Below, piece after piece: positions 44,467 through 50,065 of a stretch of DNA of 64,000 nt. Where the stretch lies: the NCBI GenBank assembly GCA_963715895.1, contig OY970284.1:4771892-4835891 (forward strand), given 5' to 3'. Origin of the DNA: Thermoanaerobaculia bacterium. GTDB lineage: Bacteria > Acidobacteriota > Thermoanaerobaculia > Gp7-AA8. Positions within the stretch are counted from its first letter, which is position 1, and each line of letters begins with the position of its first letter. The notes under the pieces are model-generated. The model had not been told where the DNA came from. It made no database searches and saw only the letters and a list, made by a program, of their open reading frames with translations. The position numbers and the translations under genes were made by a program.

Positions 44467-46454
44467 TTGGCTTCGCTCGTCTTTCTCATCCTCCTGTTCG
44501 CAACCTCGGCATTCGCGCAACCCGCAACCGCGCCCATCACCATCAACGACGACCAGCCCGTTTACGCCGAGGGTGTGCCGTTCCTGCTCACGGGAACATC
44601 GCTGCCCGGCGCTATCGTCACCATCGCCATCGAGAAATCGGGCAACGGCCAGACCACAGCCGATGCTTCGGGATATTGGACATTGATCTGGACACCGCCG
44701 GTAAAAACCGGCACGTGGACCATCACCGCCAGCTCGGGGGGCGTGACGGCGACGCAGCTTCTGCGCGTACAGATTCAGGGCAACGTACAGCGGCAGCCGA
44801 TCGTCGAGCCGGTCGTGCGCTACGGGACGCCGGAGATTCCGCATCCCGAGGCGTATCAGGAGATGACGGATCGGTGGCGCATCACGCCGCCGCCGTACGA
44901 GCTGACCGAGAAATCGAAAGGCCGCCCCATCGGCGACAAAGGCGCCTCGATCGATCCGTACAACCAGAACCTGATCAAAGGCGACCTGCCGATCTTCGGG
45001 AAGGACTGGTTCCTCGACTTCACCGGCATCAGCGACACCCTCGCCGAGTCGCGCACGCTGCCGACGCCGTCGGGCGTCAGCGCCGTCAAGCCGACCTCGA
45101 TCACCGTCTTCGGCAAAGACAACCAGAACCTCTTCAACGAGAACCTGATCGCCTCCTTCGACCTCTTCCAGGGCGACACCGCCTTCAAGCCCATCACGCA
45201 GCGCTTCAAGATCACGCTGATCGAAAACATCAACTACGTACACCTGCGCGAGAACGCTCTCGTCAAGCCTGACGTCCGCCGCGGAACGTCGCGCACCGAT
45301 GGGTATCTCTCGCTGCAGGAGATCTTCTACGAGCGAAAGATCCGCGATGTCTCGCCGAACTACGACTTCATGTCATTCCGCGTCGGATCGCAGCCCTTCA
45401 ACAGCGACTTCCGCGGGTTCATCTTCAACGACACGAACCTTGGCGCCCGCCTTTTCGGCAACTTCGCGTCCAATCGCTATCAATACAACGTCGCCGTGTT
45501 CGACCGGCTGGAAAAAGACACCAACTCCGGCCTCAACACAATGGAGCTCCGCGATCAGCAGGTCGGCATCGCCAATATCTACCTGCAGGACTTCCTCGTC
45601 CGCGGCTACACCCAGGAGTTCAGCGTCCACTATCTACGCGACGGCGCCACCTTTCACTACGACCGCAACGGCATCCTGGTGCGCCCTGCGCCGGTTGGGG
45701 TCTTCACGCCGCACGAGATCCGCGCCACGTACATCGGCGAGGCGGGCCTGGGACACATCGGCCGCTTCAACGTCGACCACGCCATCTACTACGTCTTCGG
45801 CACCGACGAGTTGAATCCGATCGCCGGCCCCGATCCGAATCTAAAGAACGGGAACGCCGTGAAGATCGGAGCCGGCAGCGCGGCCCTCGAGGTCTCCTAC
45901 GACCACGATTGGTATCGGCCGCGGCTGGCCCTTTTCTACGCCTCGGGCGACCGCAATCCGCGCGACCGCAACGCCCGCGGCTTCGACTCCATCTTCGACA
46001 GTCCTAATTTCGCCGGCGGCGGTTTCTCTTCTTCAACCGCCTCGGCATCCGCCTTCCGACGACCGGCGTCGCGCTCGTCGAGCGCGGCTCGCTCCTGACC
46101 AGCCTGCGCAGCTCGAAGGATGAAGGGCAGCCGAACTACGTCAATCCCGGCGTGCAGATCGCCAGCACGGGAATCGATGTCAACGTCACGCCGCGGCTGA
46201 CGGCAATCTTCACCGGCAACTACATCCGCTTCGACGCCGTCGAGTCGGTCGAGGCCATCCTCTTCCAGGGCAACATCCACAAGACGCTCGGCACCGATCT
46301 CTCCGCCGGCCTTCGCTACCGGCCGCTCCTCAACCAGAACATCGTCATCGTCGGCGGCACCGCCGTCCTCCTCCCCGGCCGAGGATTCAAAGACATCTAT
46401 GAAAAAGACCGGCCGCTCTACCACGTCTTCACGAACGTAATCCTGACCTTCTGA
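44467..46454 (+). pseudogene. Outer-membrane beta-barrel (porin-like) protein, interrupted by a -1 frameshift at about 46021-46025
   Basis: TTG start; signal peptide (ASLVFLILLFATSAFAQP); alternating-hydrophobic beta-strand composition; C-terminus ...HVFTNVILTF ends in Phe (OMP sorting signature). The reading frame switches at GGCGGCGGTTTCTC (3-T run): frame 1 ends at 46098, frame 0 continues as FLFFNRLGIRLP... to 46454. This may be a sequencing error rather than a true pseudogene. Confidence 0.6.
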
Positions 46455-49400: not shown

Positions 49401-50065
49401 ACGTCGACAAACCGCTCGAGCCGAGGATTGTCGCCACGATTCCTGAATTGAAGGATGCCACCGGCATCGGCGTGCAGTTCCGCTATGCCTTTGTCACCAC
49501 GCCGGAAGGATTGGCCAGCGTCGACATCACCGACCCGTCGCATCCGCGCGTGGCCGCGCGCCTGGCCGTTCCCGACGCCAGAAGCGTCTATGTCGCTCGC
49601 ACCTACGCCTACATCGGCGGAGGCGCCCGCGGGATGGTCATCGTCGACGTCGAGCACCCGGAGAAGCCGGCAATCCTCCCGTGGAGCGACGAGCTCCCGC
49701 ATGACGCCAACGACGTGAAAGTGGCCTCGACCAACGCATCGACCTTCGCGTACGTCGCCGACGGCAAGTACGGTCTCAAGGTCTACCAGTTCCTCTCCCC
49801 CGAATGGACGCCCGGATACGCCGGCTTCAGCCCGCGTCCCGAACCGCGCCTCGTCGCCACCCGCCGCACGCACGGCCCGGCGCTGGCGGTCTCGAAGGGC
49901 CTCGACCGCGACCGCGCCGTCGACGAAGGCGGCAATCAGGTTTCGATCTTCAACCGCATCGGCGCGCGCCCGATGACGCTCCCCGAGATGCAGCGGCTCT
50001 ACCTCCGCGACGGATCGCTCTACACCGTCAGCGAGACGCCGACTACGAAGCCGGTCACGAGGTGA
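46454..50065 (+). CDS. Secreted multihaem (about 10 CxxCH) c-type cytochrome fused to C-terminal LVIVD-repeat beta-propeller
   Basis: ATG overlaps OMP stop (ATGA); signal peptide. CxxCH motifs: CLSCH, CTDCH, CGGCH, CTGCH, CMTCH, CADCH, CQDCH, CYACH, CSGCH, CGSCH. C-terminal about 350 aa contain LVIVD-type repeats (LILIDVT, LVIVDVD, MVIVDVE, YAYIGGG). Confidence 0.85.
   Translation: [1203 protein letters not shown]

What the first reader, a model, noticed from the sequence alone, without database searches (positions are those of the whole stretch)
46454..50065. Multihaem cytochrome fused to an LVIVD-repeat beta-propeller
About 10 CxxCH sites occupy the N-terminal 800 aa. The C-terminal 350 aa carry LVIVD/MVIVD/YAYIGGG repeats characteristic of LVIVD beta-propellers, usually found on surface proteins. 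A propeller on a secreted decahaem suggests a substrate- or surface-docking module, for example mineral or partner binding, for an extracellular cytochrome.
Basis: partly seen in the sequence, partly recalled or inferred. Interest (0 to 1): 0.55.

Follow-up and report, generated by a model that had tools for sequence, protein, structure and literature searches.

The report
Decahaem cytochrome fused to a β-propeller
This gene really does encode a ten-haem cytochrome fused to a seven-bladed propeller, and it is the best-conserved part of an unnamed seven-gene electron-transfer cluster shared by hundreds of mostly oxygen-breathing bacterial species, so it probably belongs to a regulated cell-envelope electron chain and is unlikely to be a mineral-gripping surface protein.

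Summary
ORF 46454-50065 encodes 1203 aa: a Sec signal peptide, ten canonical CxxCH sites (aa 47-743; 0.016 expected by chance) and a C-terminal LVIVD domain (Pfam E=2e-20). AlphaFold2 models that domain confidently as a β-propeller with about seven blades, starting near aa 763 rather than 850.

The "extracellular, mineral-docking" reading is only partly supported. The fusion is an old, highly conserved family: all ten haem sites are invariant in 68 genomes, and identity between phyla is about 55%. It occurs in at least 80 checked species genomes, possibly 576 or more. Many hosts are aerobes, including Sphingobium, Limnobacter and Methylobacter.

A barrel-like gene almost always sits directly upstream. 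The pair usually lies in a seven-gene cluster (36461-51420): an NAD(P)H-flavo/FeS protein with two cNMP domains, a 5-TM protein with two conserved H-x13-H pairs, an FHA-anchored decahaem, an HbpS-like protein, the barrel-like protein, the target, and a c554-like tetrahaem.

No curated family, solved structure or paper covers the target.

The best reading is that it is the outer subunit of a regulated electron-export chain, with the propeller as a non-redox docking module. Location, direction of flow and acceptor are all inferred.

The parts
46454..50065 (+). Target gene: 1203-aa decahaem cytochrome c fused to an LVIVD β-propeller
   Evidence: ORF; 10 CxxCH; Pfam LVIVD E=2.2e-20; more than 8000 homologues, the top 120 full-length at 69-92% identity
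46454..46522 (+). Sec-type signal peptide (aa 1-23, [25 protein letters not shown]), no lipobox
   Evidence: Read from the sequence plus a hydrophobicity scan. Equivalent AxA-type signals occur in most of about 80 homologues. This is a heuristic call, not a trained predictor.
46523..48739 (+). Haem domain (aa 24-762) with ten CxxCH. It also has 14 further His that are at least 90% conserved (58, 84, 336, 340, 357, 436, 438, 475, 480, 497, 615, 650, 726, 729).
   Evidence: AF2 pLDDT 75.3, pTM 0.80. No Foldseek PDB hit at E<=0.001. The only profile hit is NrfB, E=2.9e-4, over the first ~110 residues.
48740..49807 (+). β-propeller of about seven blades built from LVIVD-type repeats (aa 763-1118)
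   Evidence: Pfam; repeat units; AF2 pLDDT 87.3; Foldseek hits to generic 7-8-blade propellers
49808..50062 (+). Conserved C-terminal tail (aa 1119-1203). It includes the near-invariant motif [27 protein letters not shown] and is modelled with low confidence.
   Evidence: Invariant columns; pLDDT 51-64 over this stretch. A role as a partner-binding segment is inferred.
44467..46454 (+). Barrel-like partner gene, with a likely TTG start at 44467. It is split by a 1-nt deletion near 46028-46031, its last residues are ...NVILTF, and its stop overlaps the target's ATG.
   Evidence: tblastn to the intact 661-aa L001 gene in two frames. Deletion shown against L003, L013 and L001. Directly upstream of the target in nearly all loci and in 4 of 5 divergent variants. 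The family ends in an aromatic residue, and 4 of 45 members weakly hit Alginate_exp.
36461..38839 (+). Cytoplasmic flavo-FeS protein (792 aa): TrxR/YpdA/FNR-like NAD(P)H-flavin domain, two cNMP-binding domains, and a HycB/HydN-like poly-[4Fe-4S] domain
   Evidence: Pfam on orthologues; PDB sequence hits by domain; 74% identical to the L001 orthologue
38963..39796 (+). 5-TM membrane protein (277 aa) with two H-x13-H pairs in its TM helices; a putative dihaem cytochrome b
   Evidence: Sequence and TM scan. H79 and H93 invariant, H250 and H264 at least 90% conserved in 34 orthologues. 31 of 34 weakly hit cytochrome b561 and 8 of 34 hit Ferric_reduct. Both pairs are kept in the divergent variants.
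40200..42431 (+). Membrane-anchored decahaem (743 aa): FHA, TM, ten CxxCH, TM, FHA
   Evidence: Pfam FHA E=1e-26 plus cytochrome c7/c3; CxxCH and TM positions. In L085 it is fused to Fer4 and Pyr_redox.
42455..44278 (+). Exported HbpS-like/GlcG-like protein (607 aa)
   Evidence: Pfam HbpS-like E=1.5e-23. C-terminus resembles EfgA/GlcG/PduO-C. Absent from the neighbourhood in some variants.
50071..51420 (+). c554-like tetrahaem cytochrome (449 aa), starting 6 nt after the target's stop
   Evidence: Pfam Cytochrome_C554 E=5.9e-11 and 4 CxxCH; conserved downstream in most loci

Best explanation
The gene encodes a Sec-exported protein in which a ten-haem c-type cytochrome domain is fused to a seven-bladed LVIVD β-propeller and a conserved tail.

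Most likely it is the outer subunit (periplasmic or outer-membrane side) of a regulated electron-export chain encoded by a conserved seven-gene cluster (36461-51420). The proposed path is: NAD(P)H, then the cytoplasmic flavo/[4Fe-4S] protein (gated by cyclic nucleotide), then the 5-TM dihaem-b protein across the inner membrane, then the FHA-anchored decahaem, then (optionally) the c554-like tetrahaem, then the target. The target would work as an obligate pair with the barrel-like protein encoded immediately upstream, which is probably in the outer membrane.

The propeller is read as a non-redox docking platform that holds the cytochrome on that partner or presents the acceptor. It is not read as a mineral adhesin.

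Shown: the domain architecture, the propeller fold, conservation of all haem sites, the barrel-target gene pairing, conservation of the cluster across phyla, and a gene fusion linking the membrane multihaem to the flavoprotein.

Inferred: cofactor binding by the 5-TM protein, the β-barrel fold and outer-membrane location of the partner, outward direction of electron flow, and the role of the propeller. The terminal acceptor is unknown.
For: Architecture.

Family depth: the fusion with 9-10 haems persists down to about 41% identity. All ten CxxCH are invariant in 68 genomes.

The cluster [flavo-FeS | 5-TM | FHA-multihaem | HbpS-like | barrel-like | target | c554-like] is found in an 856-kb Acidobacteriota contig. 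It is also found in about 50 of 80 loci from Alpha-, Beta- and Gammaproteobacteria, Bacteroidota and Myxococcota, including cultured strains and Sphingobium megaplasmids.

The target is the best-conserved member: 51-58% identity between Acidobacteriota and Proteobacteria, against 23-43% for the three inner-membrane-module proteins and mostly 24-51% for the rest.

The barrel-like gene's stop lies 0-10 nt from, or overlaps, the target's start in most loci. The pairing survives in 4 of 5 variants at 40-47% identity.

Rosetta-stone fusion: L085 encodes FHAx3, nine CxxCH, TM, Fer4 and Pyr_redox in one polypeptide.

The 5-TM protein has four conserved His as two H-x13-H pairs and consistent weak cytochrome b561 / Ferric_reduct hits.

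The flavoprotein domains match NAD(P)H-dependent TrxR/FNR-type enzymes and HycB-type FeS wires.

One variant (P0129) adds 18 haems at the N-terminus. That suggests the N-terminus is the periplasm-facing electron entry and the propeller is the distal end.

The propeller has no conserved Cys or Met and only H812 and H913.
Against: No result locates the target or the barrel-like protein. The barrel fold is not verified: there is no PDB or Pfam hit above threshold, and my alignment-based amphipathic-β test was only weakly positive (8% against 5%).

If the partner is an AlgE-type narrow barrel (the only weak hits), a cytochrome could not thread through it. It would then more likely be a solute channel.

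The propeller is almost as conserved as the haem domain (0.685 against 0.735 mean column conservation), which is more than a generic docking role demands.

There are 14 conserved non-motif His for ten haems, leaving spare conserved His that could belong to an active site.

The direction of electron flow rests only on domain types and thermodynamic reasoning.

In the window itself the barrel-like gene carries a frameshift, so this particular copy may not be functional, or the assembly may be wrong.
Confidence: 0.5

Rival explanations
1. It is a periplasmic multihaem oxidoreductase, an enzyme and not a wire. The propeller would form the substrate-binding or active-site chamber against one of the haems, as in cd1 nitrite reductase or hydrazine synthase. 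The barrel-like protein would be a dedicated outer-membrane channel for the substrate or product, and the rest of the cluster would supply or remove electrons.
For: Conservation is very high for a multihaem protein: about 55% between phyla, with the propeller nearly as conserved as the haem domain. The haem domain is bulky, at about 74 aa per haem, with β-rich inserts. There are spare conserved His and near-invariant motifs such as [11 protein letters not shown] and CHMHQPN. The only family hits for the partner are to the narrow Alginate_exp barrel. No secretion or sorting signal exists beyond Sec. The hosts are aerobes with no known mineral respiration.
Against: All ten sites are canonical CxxCH, and there is no conserved extra Cys, Lys-type motif or extra cofactor site. 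No sequence or fold resemblance to NrfA, HAO, OTR, MccA, cd1 or hydrazine synthase was found. The propeller lacks a conserved ligand set. An 18-haem N-terminal extension in one variant looks like wire-building.
Confidence: 0.25
2. It is a free extracellular or surface-displayed decahaem of a metal-respiring bacterium, and its propeller docks onto mineral surfaces for dissimilatory Fe(III)/Mn(IV) reduction.
For: It has a signal peptide and ten haems. Pfam describes LVIVD repeats as typical of cell-surface proteins. Other electron-transfer islands pair multihaem cytochromes with β-propeller proteins. The adjacent barrel-like gene recalls porin-cytochrome systems.
Against: The family is spread across aerobic heterotrophs, hydrocarbon degraders and a methanotroph. 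There is no lipobox, no T9SS domain in the Bacteroidota copies and no conserved secretion genes nearby. The electron input module is a cytoplasmic NAD(P)H flavoprotein, not a quinol dehydrogenase of a respiratory chain. An outward flow of that kind conserves no energy (reasoning from bioenergetics).
Confidence: 0.1
3. It is a redox- or stress-sensing device and not a bulk electron conduit. The haem chain would report the periplasmic or external redox state to cytoplasmic signalling through the FHA domains, cNMP-binding domains and neighbouring Ser/Thr kinases. The HbpS/EfgA-like protein would act as a sensor accessory.
For: FHA domains sit on the membrane multihaem. The flavoprotein carries two cNMP domains. 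Ser/Thr kinases flank the divergent variants. The HbpS-like fold includes known sensor proteins such as EfgA. An ECF sigma, an anti-sigma and a PP2C phosphatase lie next to the cluster in L001.
Against: About 24 c-type haems plus a flavo-FeS enzyme is a large investment for a sensor. The signalling domains are explained as well or better as regulators of an expensive electron-export valve. No output domain, DNA-binding or kinase, is conserved within the cluster.
Confidence: 0.08
4. The chain runs inward. The target would oxidise an external or periplasmic donor, such as Fe(II), Mn(II) or reduced humics, and pass the electrons to the cytoplasmic flavoprotein to make NAD(P)H.
For: The inner-membrane sub-module (FHA-nonahaem, 5-TM protein, [4Fe-4S] protein) occurs in the Fe(II) oxidiser Ferrigenium straubiae. 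There it was proposed to carry electrons inward from outer-membrane Fe(II) oxidases (bioRxiv 10.64898/2026.01.22.701106).
Against: Moving electrons inward across the membrane to NAD(P)+ is uphill both in redox potential for such donors and against the membrane potential (bioenergetic reasoning). Most hosts are organoheterotrophs.
Confidence: 0.07

Closest known systems
Porin-cytochrome complexes such as MtrCAB (Shewanella) and the Geobacter Pcc/Ext complexes
   Same: Both have a ten-haem exported cytochrome encoded next to, and probably translationally coupled with, a barrel-like gene whose product has an exported N-terminus and an aromatic C-terminus. Both have further multihaem cytochromes in the same operon. 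The overall logic is a chain of haems across the envelope.
   Different: No Mtr/Omc family model reaches its threshold; the target itself gives no hit, and homologues score 18-22 bits against a cutoff of 30. The target has no lipoprotein signal and no MtrA-like slim decahaem partner. It is bulky, at about 74 aa per haem, and carries a fused propeller. Electron input is a cytoplasmic NAD(P)H flavo-FeS protein plus a b-type 5-TM protein, not a CymA/ImcH-type quinol dehydrogenase. The hosts are mostly aerobes.
Stand-alone six- or seven-bladed (NHL-type) β-propeller proteins in extracellular-electron-transfer cytochrome islands: SEEP-SRB1/Desulfuromonadales operon (PMC5539420), Desulfovibrio ferrophilus DFE_0451/0452/0463 (PMC8322314), Tenderia UetH/UetI (bioRxiv 10.1101/2022.05.06.490989)
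   Same: A β-propeller is persistently associated with large multihaem cytochromes, and the authors propose that it organises or stabilises the cytochrome complex. Its function is unknown there too.
   Different: Here the propeller is covalently fused to the cytochrome and is of the LVIVD type, not NHL. The partner set differs: there is no peptidyl-prolyl isomerase and no 16- or 26-haem protein. The hosts are not anaerobic electron-transferring bacteria.
The 'NHC' module of Ferrigenium straubiae: FHA-bearing membrane nonahaem cytochrome, 5-TM protein and [4Fe-4S] protein (bioRxiv 10.64898/2026.01.22.701106)
   Same: The window's genes at 36461-42431 are the same kind of three-gene inner-membrane module. 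Its function is described there as unknown, and the FHA-multihaem combination as previously unreported.
   Different: That paper does not link the module to a propeller cytochrome or a barrel-like protein; its neighbours there are nirK and an SHP-like gene. It also found no redox motif in the 5-TM protein. Here four conserved His and consistent weak cytochrome b561 hits point to a dihaem b.
Haem c plus propeller enzymes: cytochrome cd1 nitrite reductase (NirS) and the hydrazine synthase alpha subunit
   Same: A c-type haem domain and a β-propeller lie in one exported polypeptide.
   Different: No sequence or fold similarity was found. The target has ten haems where those enzymes have one or two. 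The propeller has no conserved ligand set for a cofactor.
NADPH oxidase / ferric-reductase-domain systems (NOX; MsrQ with a cytosolic flavin reductase)
   Same: The proposed working principle is the same: cytoplasmic NAD(P)H, a flavin, and two b haems held by His pairs 13 residues apart in TM helices carry electrons outward. As in NOX, regulation is by phospho- or second-messenger signalling.
   Different: The components are separate polypeptides with a poly-[4Fe-4S] domain inserted between them. Only sub-threshold Ferric_reduct / b561 hits were found. The acceptor side is a chain of about 24 c-type haems, not O2 or MsrP. Membership was not established.
NCBIfam NF040943 ExtM (Geobacter selenite/tellurite-reduction operon cytochrome)
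   Same: It is the best-scoring curated model for the haem domain, with local matches around haems 6-7.
   Different: The score is 78.9 bits against an equivalog cutoff of 800, so the target is not a member.

Membership tests
Pfam PF08309 LVIVD-repeat β-propeller | HMM match above the gathering score | tested here: met
   72.1 bits against a cutoff of 20.2, E=2.2e-20, 4 stretches. The same hit occurs in the proteobacterial and Bacteroidota copies.
Pfam PF08309 LVIVD-repeat β-propeller | Tandem ~40-aa repeats that fold into a β-propeller | tested here: met
   Seven units at aa 763-1118. AF2 pLDDT 87.3, pTM 0.89, with four-strand blades. Foldseek gives 1211 hits at E<=0.001; the hits listed are almost all β-propeller proteins. 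The blade number (about seven) comes from the strand pattern and repeat count, not from coordinates.
Pfam PF08309 LVIVD-repeat β-propeller | Cell-surface location (as described for the family) | not testable with these tools
   Only a Sec signal peptide is visible. There is no lipobox and no sorting domain.
Multihaem c-type cytochromes | Several CxxCH haem-attachment motifs, conserved among homologues | tested here: met
   Ten motifs against 0.016 expected; all 100% conserved in 68 genomes.
Multihaem c-type cytochromes | Export signal, since haem attachment happens outside the cytoplasm, and enough conserved distal ligands | tested here: met
   N-terminal hydrophobic signal with an AxA-like site. 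14 non-motif His are at least 90% conserved in the haem domain. Covalent haem binding itself cannot be tested here.
MtrC/OmcA/MtrF outer-surface decahaem cytochromes | Match to the MtrC/MtrF pentahaem-domain model (PF22113) above threshold | tested here: not met
   The window protein gives no hit at E<=1. Homologues reach only 17.9-21.9 bits against a cutoff of 30.
MtrC/OmcA/MtrF outer-surface decahaem cytochromes | Lipoprotein signal peptide (lipobox Cys) | tested here: not met
   There is no Cys before aa 47 in the window protein. Most homologues have AxA-type signals and only a few have a lipobox.
Porin-cytochrome complexes (generic) | Adjacent gene for an outer-membrane β-barrel | tested here: inconclusive
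   The adjacent gene is near-invariant. It has a signal peptide and an aromatic C-terminus (...LTF/LTY), and 4 of 45 members give weak Alginate_exp hits.
Porin-cytochrome complexes (generic) | [quoted passage not shown] | not testable with these tools
   This needs fractionation, protease-shaving or proteoliposome assays.
Catalytic multihaem enzymes (NrfA, HAO, octahaem tetrathionate reductase, MccA) | Family HMM match or fold similarity | tested here: not met
Catalytic multihaem enzymes (NrfA, HAO, octahaem tetrathionate reductase, MccA) | A special active-site haem motif (CxxCK, CX15CH, cross-linking Tyr/Cys) | tested here: not met
   Only canonical CxxCH motifs are present, and no additional conserved Cys. 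A five-coordinate haem cannot be excluded from sequence.
NCBIfam NF040943 ExtM | Score at or above the equivalog cutoff (800 bits) | tested here: not met
   78.9 bits; 48.7 bits for the Alcanivoracaceae copy.
Haem-propeller enzymes (cd1 NirS, hydrazine synthase alpha) | Sequence or fold relationship, and conserved propeller residues that bind a cofactor | tested here: not met
   No PDB sequence or profile hit. None of the 50 propeller fold hits listed is cd1 or hydrazine synthase; they are mostly WD40 and LRP types. The propeller has no conserved Cys or Met and only H812 and H913.
FHA-multihaem / 5-TM / [4Fe-4S] module (Ferrigenium 'NHC' cluster); applies to the neighbouring genes, not the target | FHA domain fused to a membrane-anchored multihaem, next to a 5-TM protein and a [4Fe-4S] protein | tested here: met
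   Genes 36461-42431: FHA E=1e-26 plus ten CxxCH plus TM segments; a 5-TM protein; a Fer4-containing flavoprotein. The comparison with the paper is by description only; the sequences were not aligned.
Cytochrome b561 / ferric-reductase-domain dihaem b proteins; applies to the 5-TM neighbour | Two His pairs in TM helices, and a family HMM match | tested here: inconclusive
   Four conserved His form two H-x13-H pairs. 31 of 34 members hit PF01292 and 8 of 34 hit PF01794, all below the gathering scores. A faint Ferric_reduct hit is on record for L087.

The most novel reading that the evidence does not exclude
The barrel-target pair together with the flavo-FeS, dihaem-b and FHA-multihaem module may be a previously unrecognised, widely distributed NOX-like machine of aerobic bacteria. 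It would be an NAD(P)H-driven electron-export chain spanning the envelope, gated by cyclic nucleotide and phospho-threonine signalling. Its terminal decahaem-propeller would sit at the outer membrane and reduce an external acceptor for a non-respiratory purpose, for example reductive release of Fe or Mn, reduction of humics, or regulated extracellular superoxide production.
Probability: 0.3. Interest if true: 0.85.

Novelty: new variant of a known kind. Interest (0 to 1): 0.62.

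Why it matters
Multihaem electron conduits are studied almost entirely in anaerobic metal reducers and iron oxidisers. This cluster carries about 24 c-type haems and is strongly conserved, yet it has no curated family, no solved relative and no functional description. It occurs in hundreds of species that are mostly ordinary aerobes in soil, fresh water and the sea, and on conjugative Sphingobium megaplasmids.

If it exports cytoplasmic reducing power under second-messenger control, it would be a new route by which aerobic bacteria act on their redox surroundings, for example metal acquisition, humic reduction or reactive-oxygen production.

It also places the FHA-multihaem module, recently reported as an orphan in an Fe(II) oxidiser, in a wider genomic context. 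It gives that module a plausible transmembrane haem-b carrier that the report did not recognise. Several cultured, genetically approachable carriers make the hypothesis directly testable.

Tried and rejected
- PDB sequence and profile searches gave nothing useful for the target (only NrfB at E=2.9e-4 over the first ~110 aa), the barrel-like protein or the 5-TM protein.
- NCBIfam: no protein of the cluster reaches any curated cutoff. ExtM membership was rejected (79 against 800 bits).
- I looked for propeller-less relatives of the haem domain. The ~690-aa hits in the representative library lack most haem motifs and end in Arg/Ser-rich junk, so they look like frameshifted calls. No genuine unfused form was seen among 68 genome copies.
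- Literature: six searches found no description of a cytochrome-LVIVD fusion or of this cluster. The only relevant item covers the three-gene FHA-multihaem module. The Woeseiaceae and iron-oxidiser genome papers were checked and do not mention it.
- The amphipathic β-strand periodicity test on the barrel-like family was only marginal, so I do not claim the fold.
- I considered a lipoprotein-instead-of-barrel correlation. L087 has a lipobox and no barrel gene. However, at least two loci with lipobox-like signals (L020, L058) still have the barrel gene, so I dropped the idea.
- Rfam found no RNA family anywhere in the window.
- No further genes are conserved around the cluster, so no terminal enzyme or secretion system could be tied to it.

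Full report

Yes. The ORF runs from ATG 46454 to the stop at 50065 and encodes 1203 aa. It has exactly ten canonical CxxCH motifs, at aa 47, 67, 129, 294, 351, 487, 514, 622, 633 and 739. Two thousand residue shuffles gave a mean of 0.016 motifs and never more than one. Apart from the 20 motif cysteines there is a single Cys (785), and no CxxCK or long-spacer motif.

Pfam LVIVD (PF08309) matches at 72.1 bits (cutoff 20.2; E=2.2e-20) in four stretches. By eye there are seven LVIVD-like units between aa 763 and 1118. The N-terminus ([25 protein letters not shown]) looks like a Sec signal peptide without a lipobox.

**2. Structure**

AlphaFold2 was run on aa 750-1203 with a 56-sequence alignment reaching down to 37% identity. 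It gave pLDDT 87.3 and pTM 0.89, with a strand pattern of four-stranded blades. Foldseek against the PDB found 1211 hits at E<=0.001. The 50 hits listed are almost all β-propeller proteins: Fbw7, β-TrCP, COP1, AztD, LRP6. TM-scores are about 0.45 and identity about 10%, so the fold is confirmed but there is no specific relative. A conserved but poorly modelled 85-aa tail follows it.

**3. The family**

A word-indexed search returned the maximum of 8000 hits. The top 120 cover 79-100% of the query (nearly all 95% or more), are 69-92% identical, and are named 'hypothetical protein' where named at all. Where an organism is given it is a Thermoanaerobaculia (Acidobacteriota) MAG, so the window is most likely from a soil member of that class.

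An exhaustive search of 50%-identity representatives found 1354 clusters at E<=1e-30. The same fusion, with 9-10 haems (haem 3 sometimes absent), persists to about 41% identity. One variant carries 18 extra N-terminal haems, 28 in all.

A scan of one genome per species found 576 or more relatives. The best 80 were inspected. Besides Acidobacteriota they include Alpha-, Beta- and Gammaproteobacteria, Bacteroidota, Myxococcota and Bdellovibrionales at 53-59% identity. Among them are the cultured strains Sphingobium fuliginis DSM 18781, Sinimarinibacterium flocculans DSM 104150, Stagnimonas aquatica and Fontimonas sp., together with MAGs assigned to Limnobacter, Methylobacter and Novosphingobium. 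From general knowledge these genera are aerobes.

Thirteen Sphingobium/Sphingopyxis megaplasmids carry it. One is the conjugative pMSHV of S. herbicidovorans MH, where PGAP calls it 'multiheme c-type cytochrome'.

In an alignment of 68 genome copies all ten CxxCH are 100% conserved, and 14 other His in the haem domain are at least 90% conserved. The C-terminal domain has no conserved Cys or Met and only two conserved His (812, 913). Mean column conservation is 0.735 for the haem domain, 0.685 for the propeller and 0.684 for the tail.

**4. Genomic context: the main finding**

In the window the target is gene six of seven co-directional, tightly packed genes:
- 36461-38839: a cytoplasmic protein with a TrxR/YpdA/FNR-like NAD(P)H-flavin domain, two PKA/PKG-type cNMP-binding domains and a HycB/HydN-like poly-[4Fe-4S] domain.
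- 38963-39796: a 5-TM protein.
- 40200-42431: FHA, TM, ten CxxCH, TM, FHA.
- 42455-44278: an exported HbpS/GlcG/EfgA-like protein.
- 44467-46454: a barrel-like protein.
- 46454-50065: the target.
- 50071-51420: a c554-like tetrahaem.

The same set in the same order is present on an 856-kb Acidobacteriota contig and in about 50 of the 80 species loci across phyla; many of the rest are truncated contigs. It is complete in cultured strains.

Rearrangements reveal two modules: [flavo-FeS, 5-TM, FHA-multihaem] and [HbpS-like, barrel-like, target, with or without c554]. No other gene is conserved around them.

The target is the best-conserved member. Identity between Acidobacteriota and Proteobacteria is 51-58% for the target, against 23-43% for the three inner-membrane-module proteins and mostly 24-51% for the rest.

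The barrel-like gene is immediately upstream of the target in essentially every locus that has upstream sequence. Its stop is 0-10 nt from, or overlapping, the target's start, which suggests translational coupling. This pairing survives in 4 of 5 variants at 40-47% identity; the exception has a lipoprotein-type target.

In one variant (L085) a single 1296-aa polypeptide reads FHAx3, nine CxxCH, TM, Fer4, Pyr_redox. This gene fusion ties the membrane multihaem to the NAD(P)H-flavoprotein. Ser/Thr kinase genes, the usual partners of FHA domains, flank two variants.

**5. The partners**

The 5-TM family has two H-x13-H pairs in TM helices. H79 and H93 are invariant and H250 and H264 are at least 90% conserved; both pairs are kept in all variants. 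31 of 34 members weakly match cytochrome b561 and 8 match the ferric-reductase TM domain, all below threshold. I therefore read it as a dihaem-b transmembrane electron carrier.

The barrel-like family has a signal peptide and ends in ...NLILTY/F. Four of 45 members weakly hit Alginate_exp. It has no PDB relative, and my amphipathic-β test was marginal. An outer-membrane β-barrel is therefore inferred, not shown.

No protein of the cluster reaches any NCBIfam cutoff.

**6. Literature**

No paper in the library describes a cytochrome-LVIVD fusion. A 2026 preprint on Ferrigenium straubiae describes a three-gene set: an FHA-bearing membrane nonahaem, a 5-TM protein and a [4Fe-4S] protein. It calls the set novel and of unknown function, states that FHA had not been seen with multihaem cytochromes, and finds no redox motif in the 5-TM protein. 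It does not link the set to a propeller cytochrome.

Separately, several electron-transfer cytochrome islands encode stand-alone six- or seven-bladed (NHL-type) propeller proteins of unknown role, suggested to organise cytochrome complexes. That is the nearest known analogue of the fusion.

**7. How it most likely works**

Shown:
- The architecture.
- The propeller fold.
- Invariance of the haem sites.
- The obligate gene pairing with the barrel-like protein.
- Cluster conservation across phyla.
- The Rosetta-stone fusion.

Inferred:
- Electrons leave NAD(P)H through the flavin and FeS clusters.
- They cross the inner membrane on two b haems.
- They travel along the FHA-anchored decahaem, and optionally the c554-like protein.
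- They reach the target, which sits with the barrel-like protein at the outer membrane.

An outward flow from NAD(P)H dissipates membrane potential instead of building it (bioenergetic reasoning). That would explain heavy gating by cNMP and phospho-threonine signalling, and it argues for a non-respiratory purpose.

The propeller has no redox-ligand signature, so it is best read as a docking platform for the partner or the acceptor. The 18-haem N-terminal extension in one variant suggests the N-terminus faces the periplasm and the propeller is the distal end.

I put this at about 0.5. The main rival (0.25) is a periplasmic enzyme whose propeller shapes the active site, with the barrel-like protein as a solute channel. 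It is favoured by the very high conservation, the spare conserved His and the absence of secretion signals. It is disfavoured by the absence of any catalytic-haem signature or resemblance to known haem enzymes.

**8. Caveats specific to this window**

The barrel-like gene carries a 1-nt deletion at about 46028-46031 relative to three relatives, though conservation continues in the new frame. A 172-bp perfect palindromic repeat sits between the HbpS-like and barrel-like genes, and no related locus has it. Either the operon copy is slightly damaged or the assembly is imperfect. The target itself is intact and 92-94% identical over its haem domain to the copies in the closest genomes.

**9. Verdict**

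This is a member of a large, uncharacterised and unnamed family. It is a new variant of the multihaem envelope electron-transfer theme, and it is notable for the fused propeller, the NAD(P)H/cNMP/FHA-regulated input module and its spread among aerobes.

Noticed in passing
window 46028-46031 (within the barrel-like gene, 44467-46454): There is a single-base deletion in a T/C-rich run (GGTTTCTC-TTCTTC) relative to L003, L013 and L001. It splits the barrel-like gene into two frames (ORFs ending at 46098 and 46152-46454). Protein similarity continues in the second frame, so this is either a recent frameshift or an assembly error.
   Followed up: yes
window 44295-44466: Four perfect tandem copies of ACGTAGGTCGGACTC are followed about 80 nt later by two copies of its reverse complement, ending exactly at the likely TTG start of the barrel-like gene. 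The region folds into a 44-bp perfect stem (dG -123.5 kcal/mol, z = -11.8). The 15-mer occurs nowhere else in the window or in 83 related loci, and in the closest relatives the two flanking genes abut with no such spacer. It could be an inserted palindromic element or a translational or transcriptional block inside the operon.
   Followed up: partly
window 38963-39796: This 5-TM protein has two conserved H-x13-H pairs and consistent sub-threshold cytochrome b561 / ferric-reductase hits across 34 orthologues. It is probably an unrecognised dihaem-b transmembrane electron carrier. The only paper describing its Ferrigenium counterpart reported no redox motif.
   Followed up: yes
window 40200-42431; L085 4278-8168: The membrane decahaem has FHA domains at both ends in the Acidobacteriota copy, but only an N-terminal FHA in Proteobacteria. 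In L085 it is fused into FHAx3, nine haems, TM, Fer4 and Pyr_redox. Ser/Thr kinase genes flank the divergent variants L084 and L088.
   Followed up: partly
window 36461-38839: This 792-aa cytoplasmic protein combines a TrxR/FNR-like flavin domain, two PKA/PKG-type cyclic-nucleotide-binding domains and a HycB-like poly-[4Fe-4S] domain. That is an unusual, apparently second-messenger-gated oxidoreductase. In variants L085 and L087 the cNMP+Fer4 part is a separate protein.
   Followed up: partly
L084 2927-7873 (protein P0129): This family member has 28 CxxCH motifs: an 18-haem N-terminal extension in front of the usual ten-haem-plus-propeller body. Its barrel-like gene still overlaps its start.
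   Followed up: partly
L083 (Sphingobium herbicidovorans MH plasmid pMSHV, NZ_CP020539.1 801035-817324): The whole cluster lies on a 959-kb conjugative megaplasmid, and on 12 other Sphingobium/Sphingopyxis secondary replicons. That is consistent with horizontal spread. The annotations are generic ('heme-binding protein', 'cytochrome c3 family protein', 'cyclic nucleotide-binding domain-containing protein').
   Followed up: partly
window 53775-55301 and 55371-56291: A dihaem DHOR-family putative peroxidase (Pfam E=1.5e-28) and a TonB C-terminal-domain protein lie about 2.4 kb (DHOR) and about 4 kb (TonB) downstream of the cluster's last gene. They are not conserved with the cluster in other loci.
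   Followed up: no
window 51421-53774: The stretch after the cluster holds a PIN-domain (VapC-like) ORF (51707-52132) and a fatty-acid-hydroxylase-family ORF (52803-53615). The long antisense ORF 51350-52888 has no family hit and looks non-coding.
   Followed up: partly
window 58184-61984: A 1266-aa signalling protein with PAS/GAF sensor domains and GGDEF plus EAL domains (cyclic-di-GMP turnover). No link to the cluster was examined.
   Followed up: no
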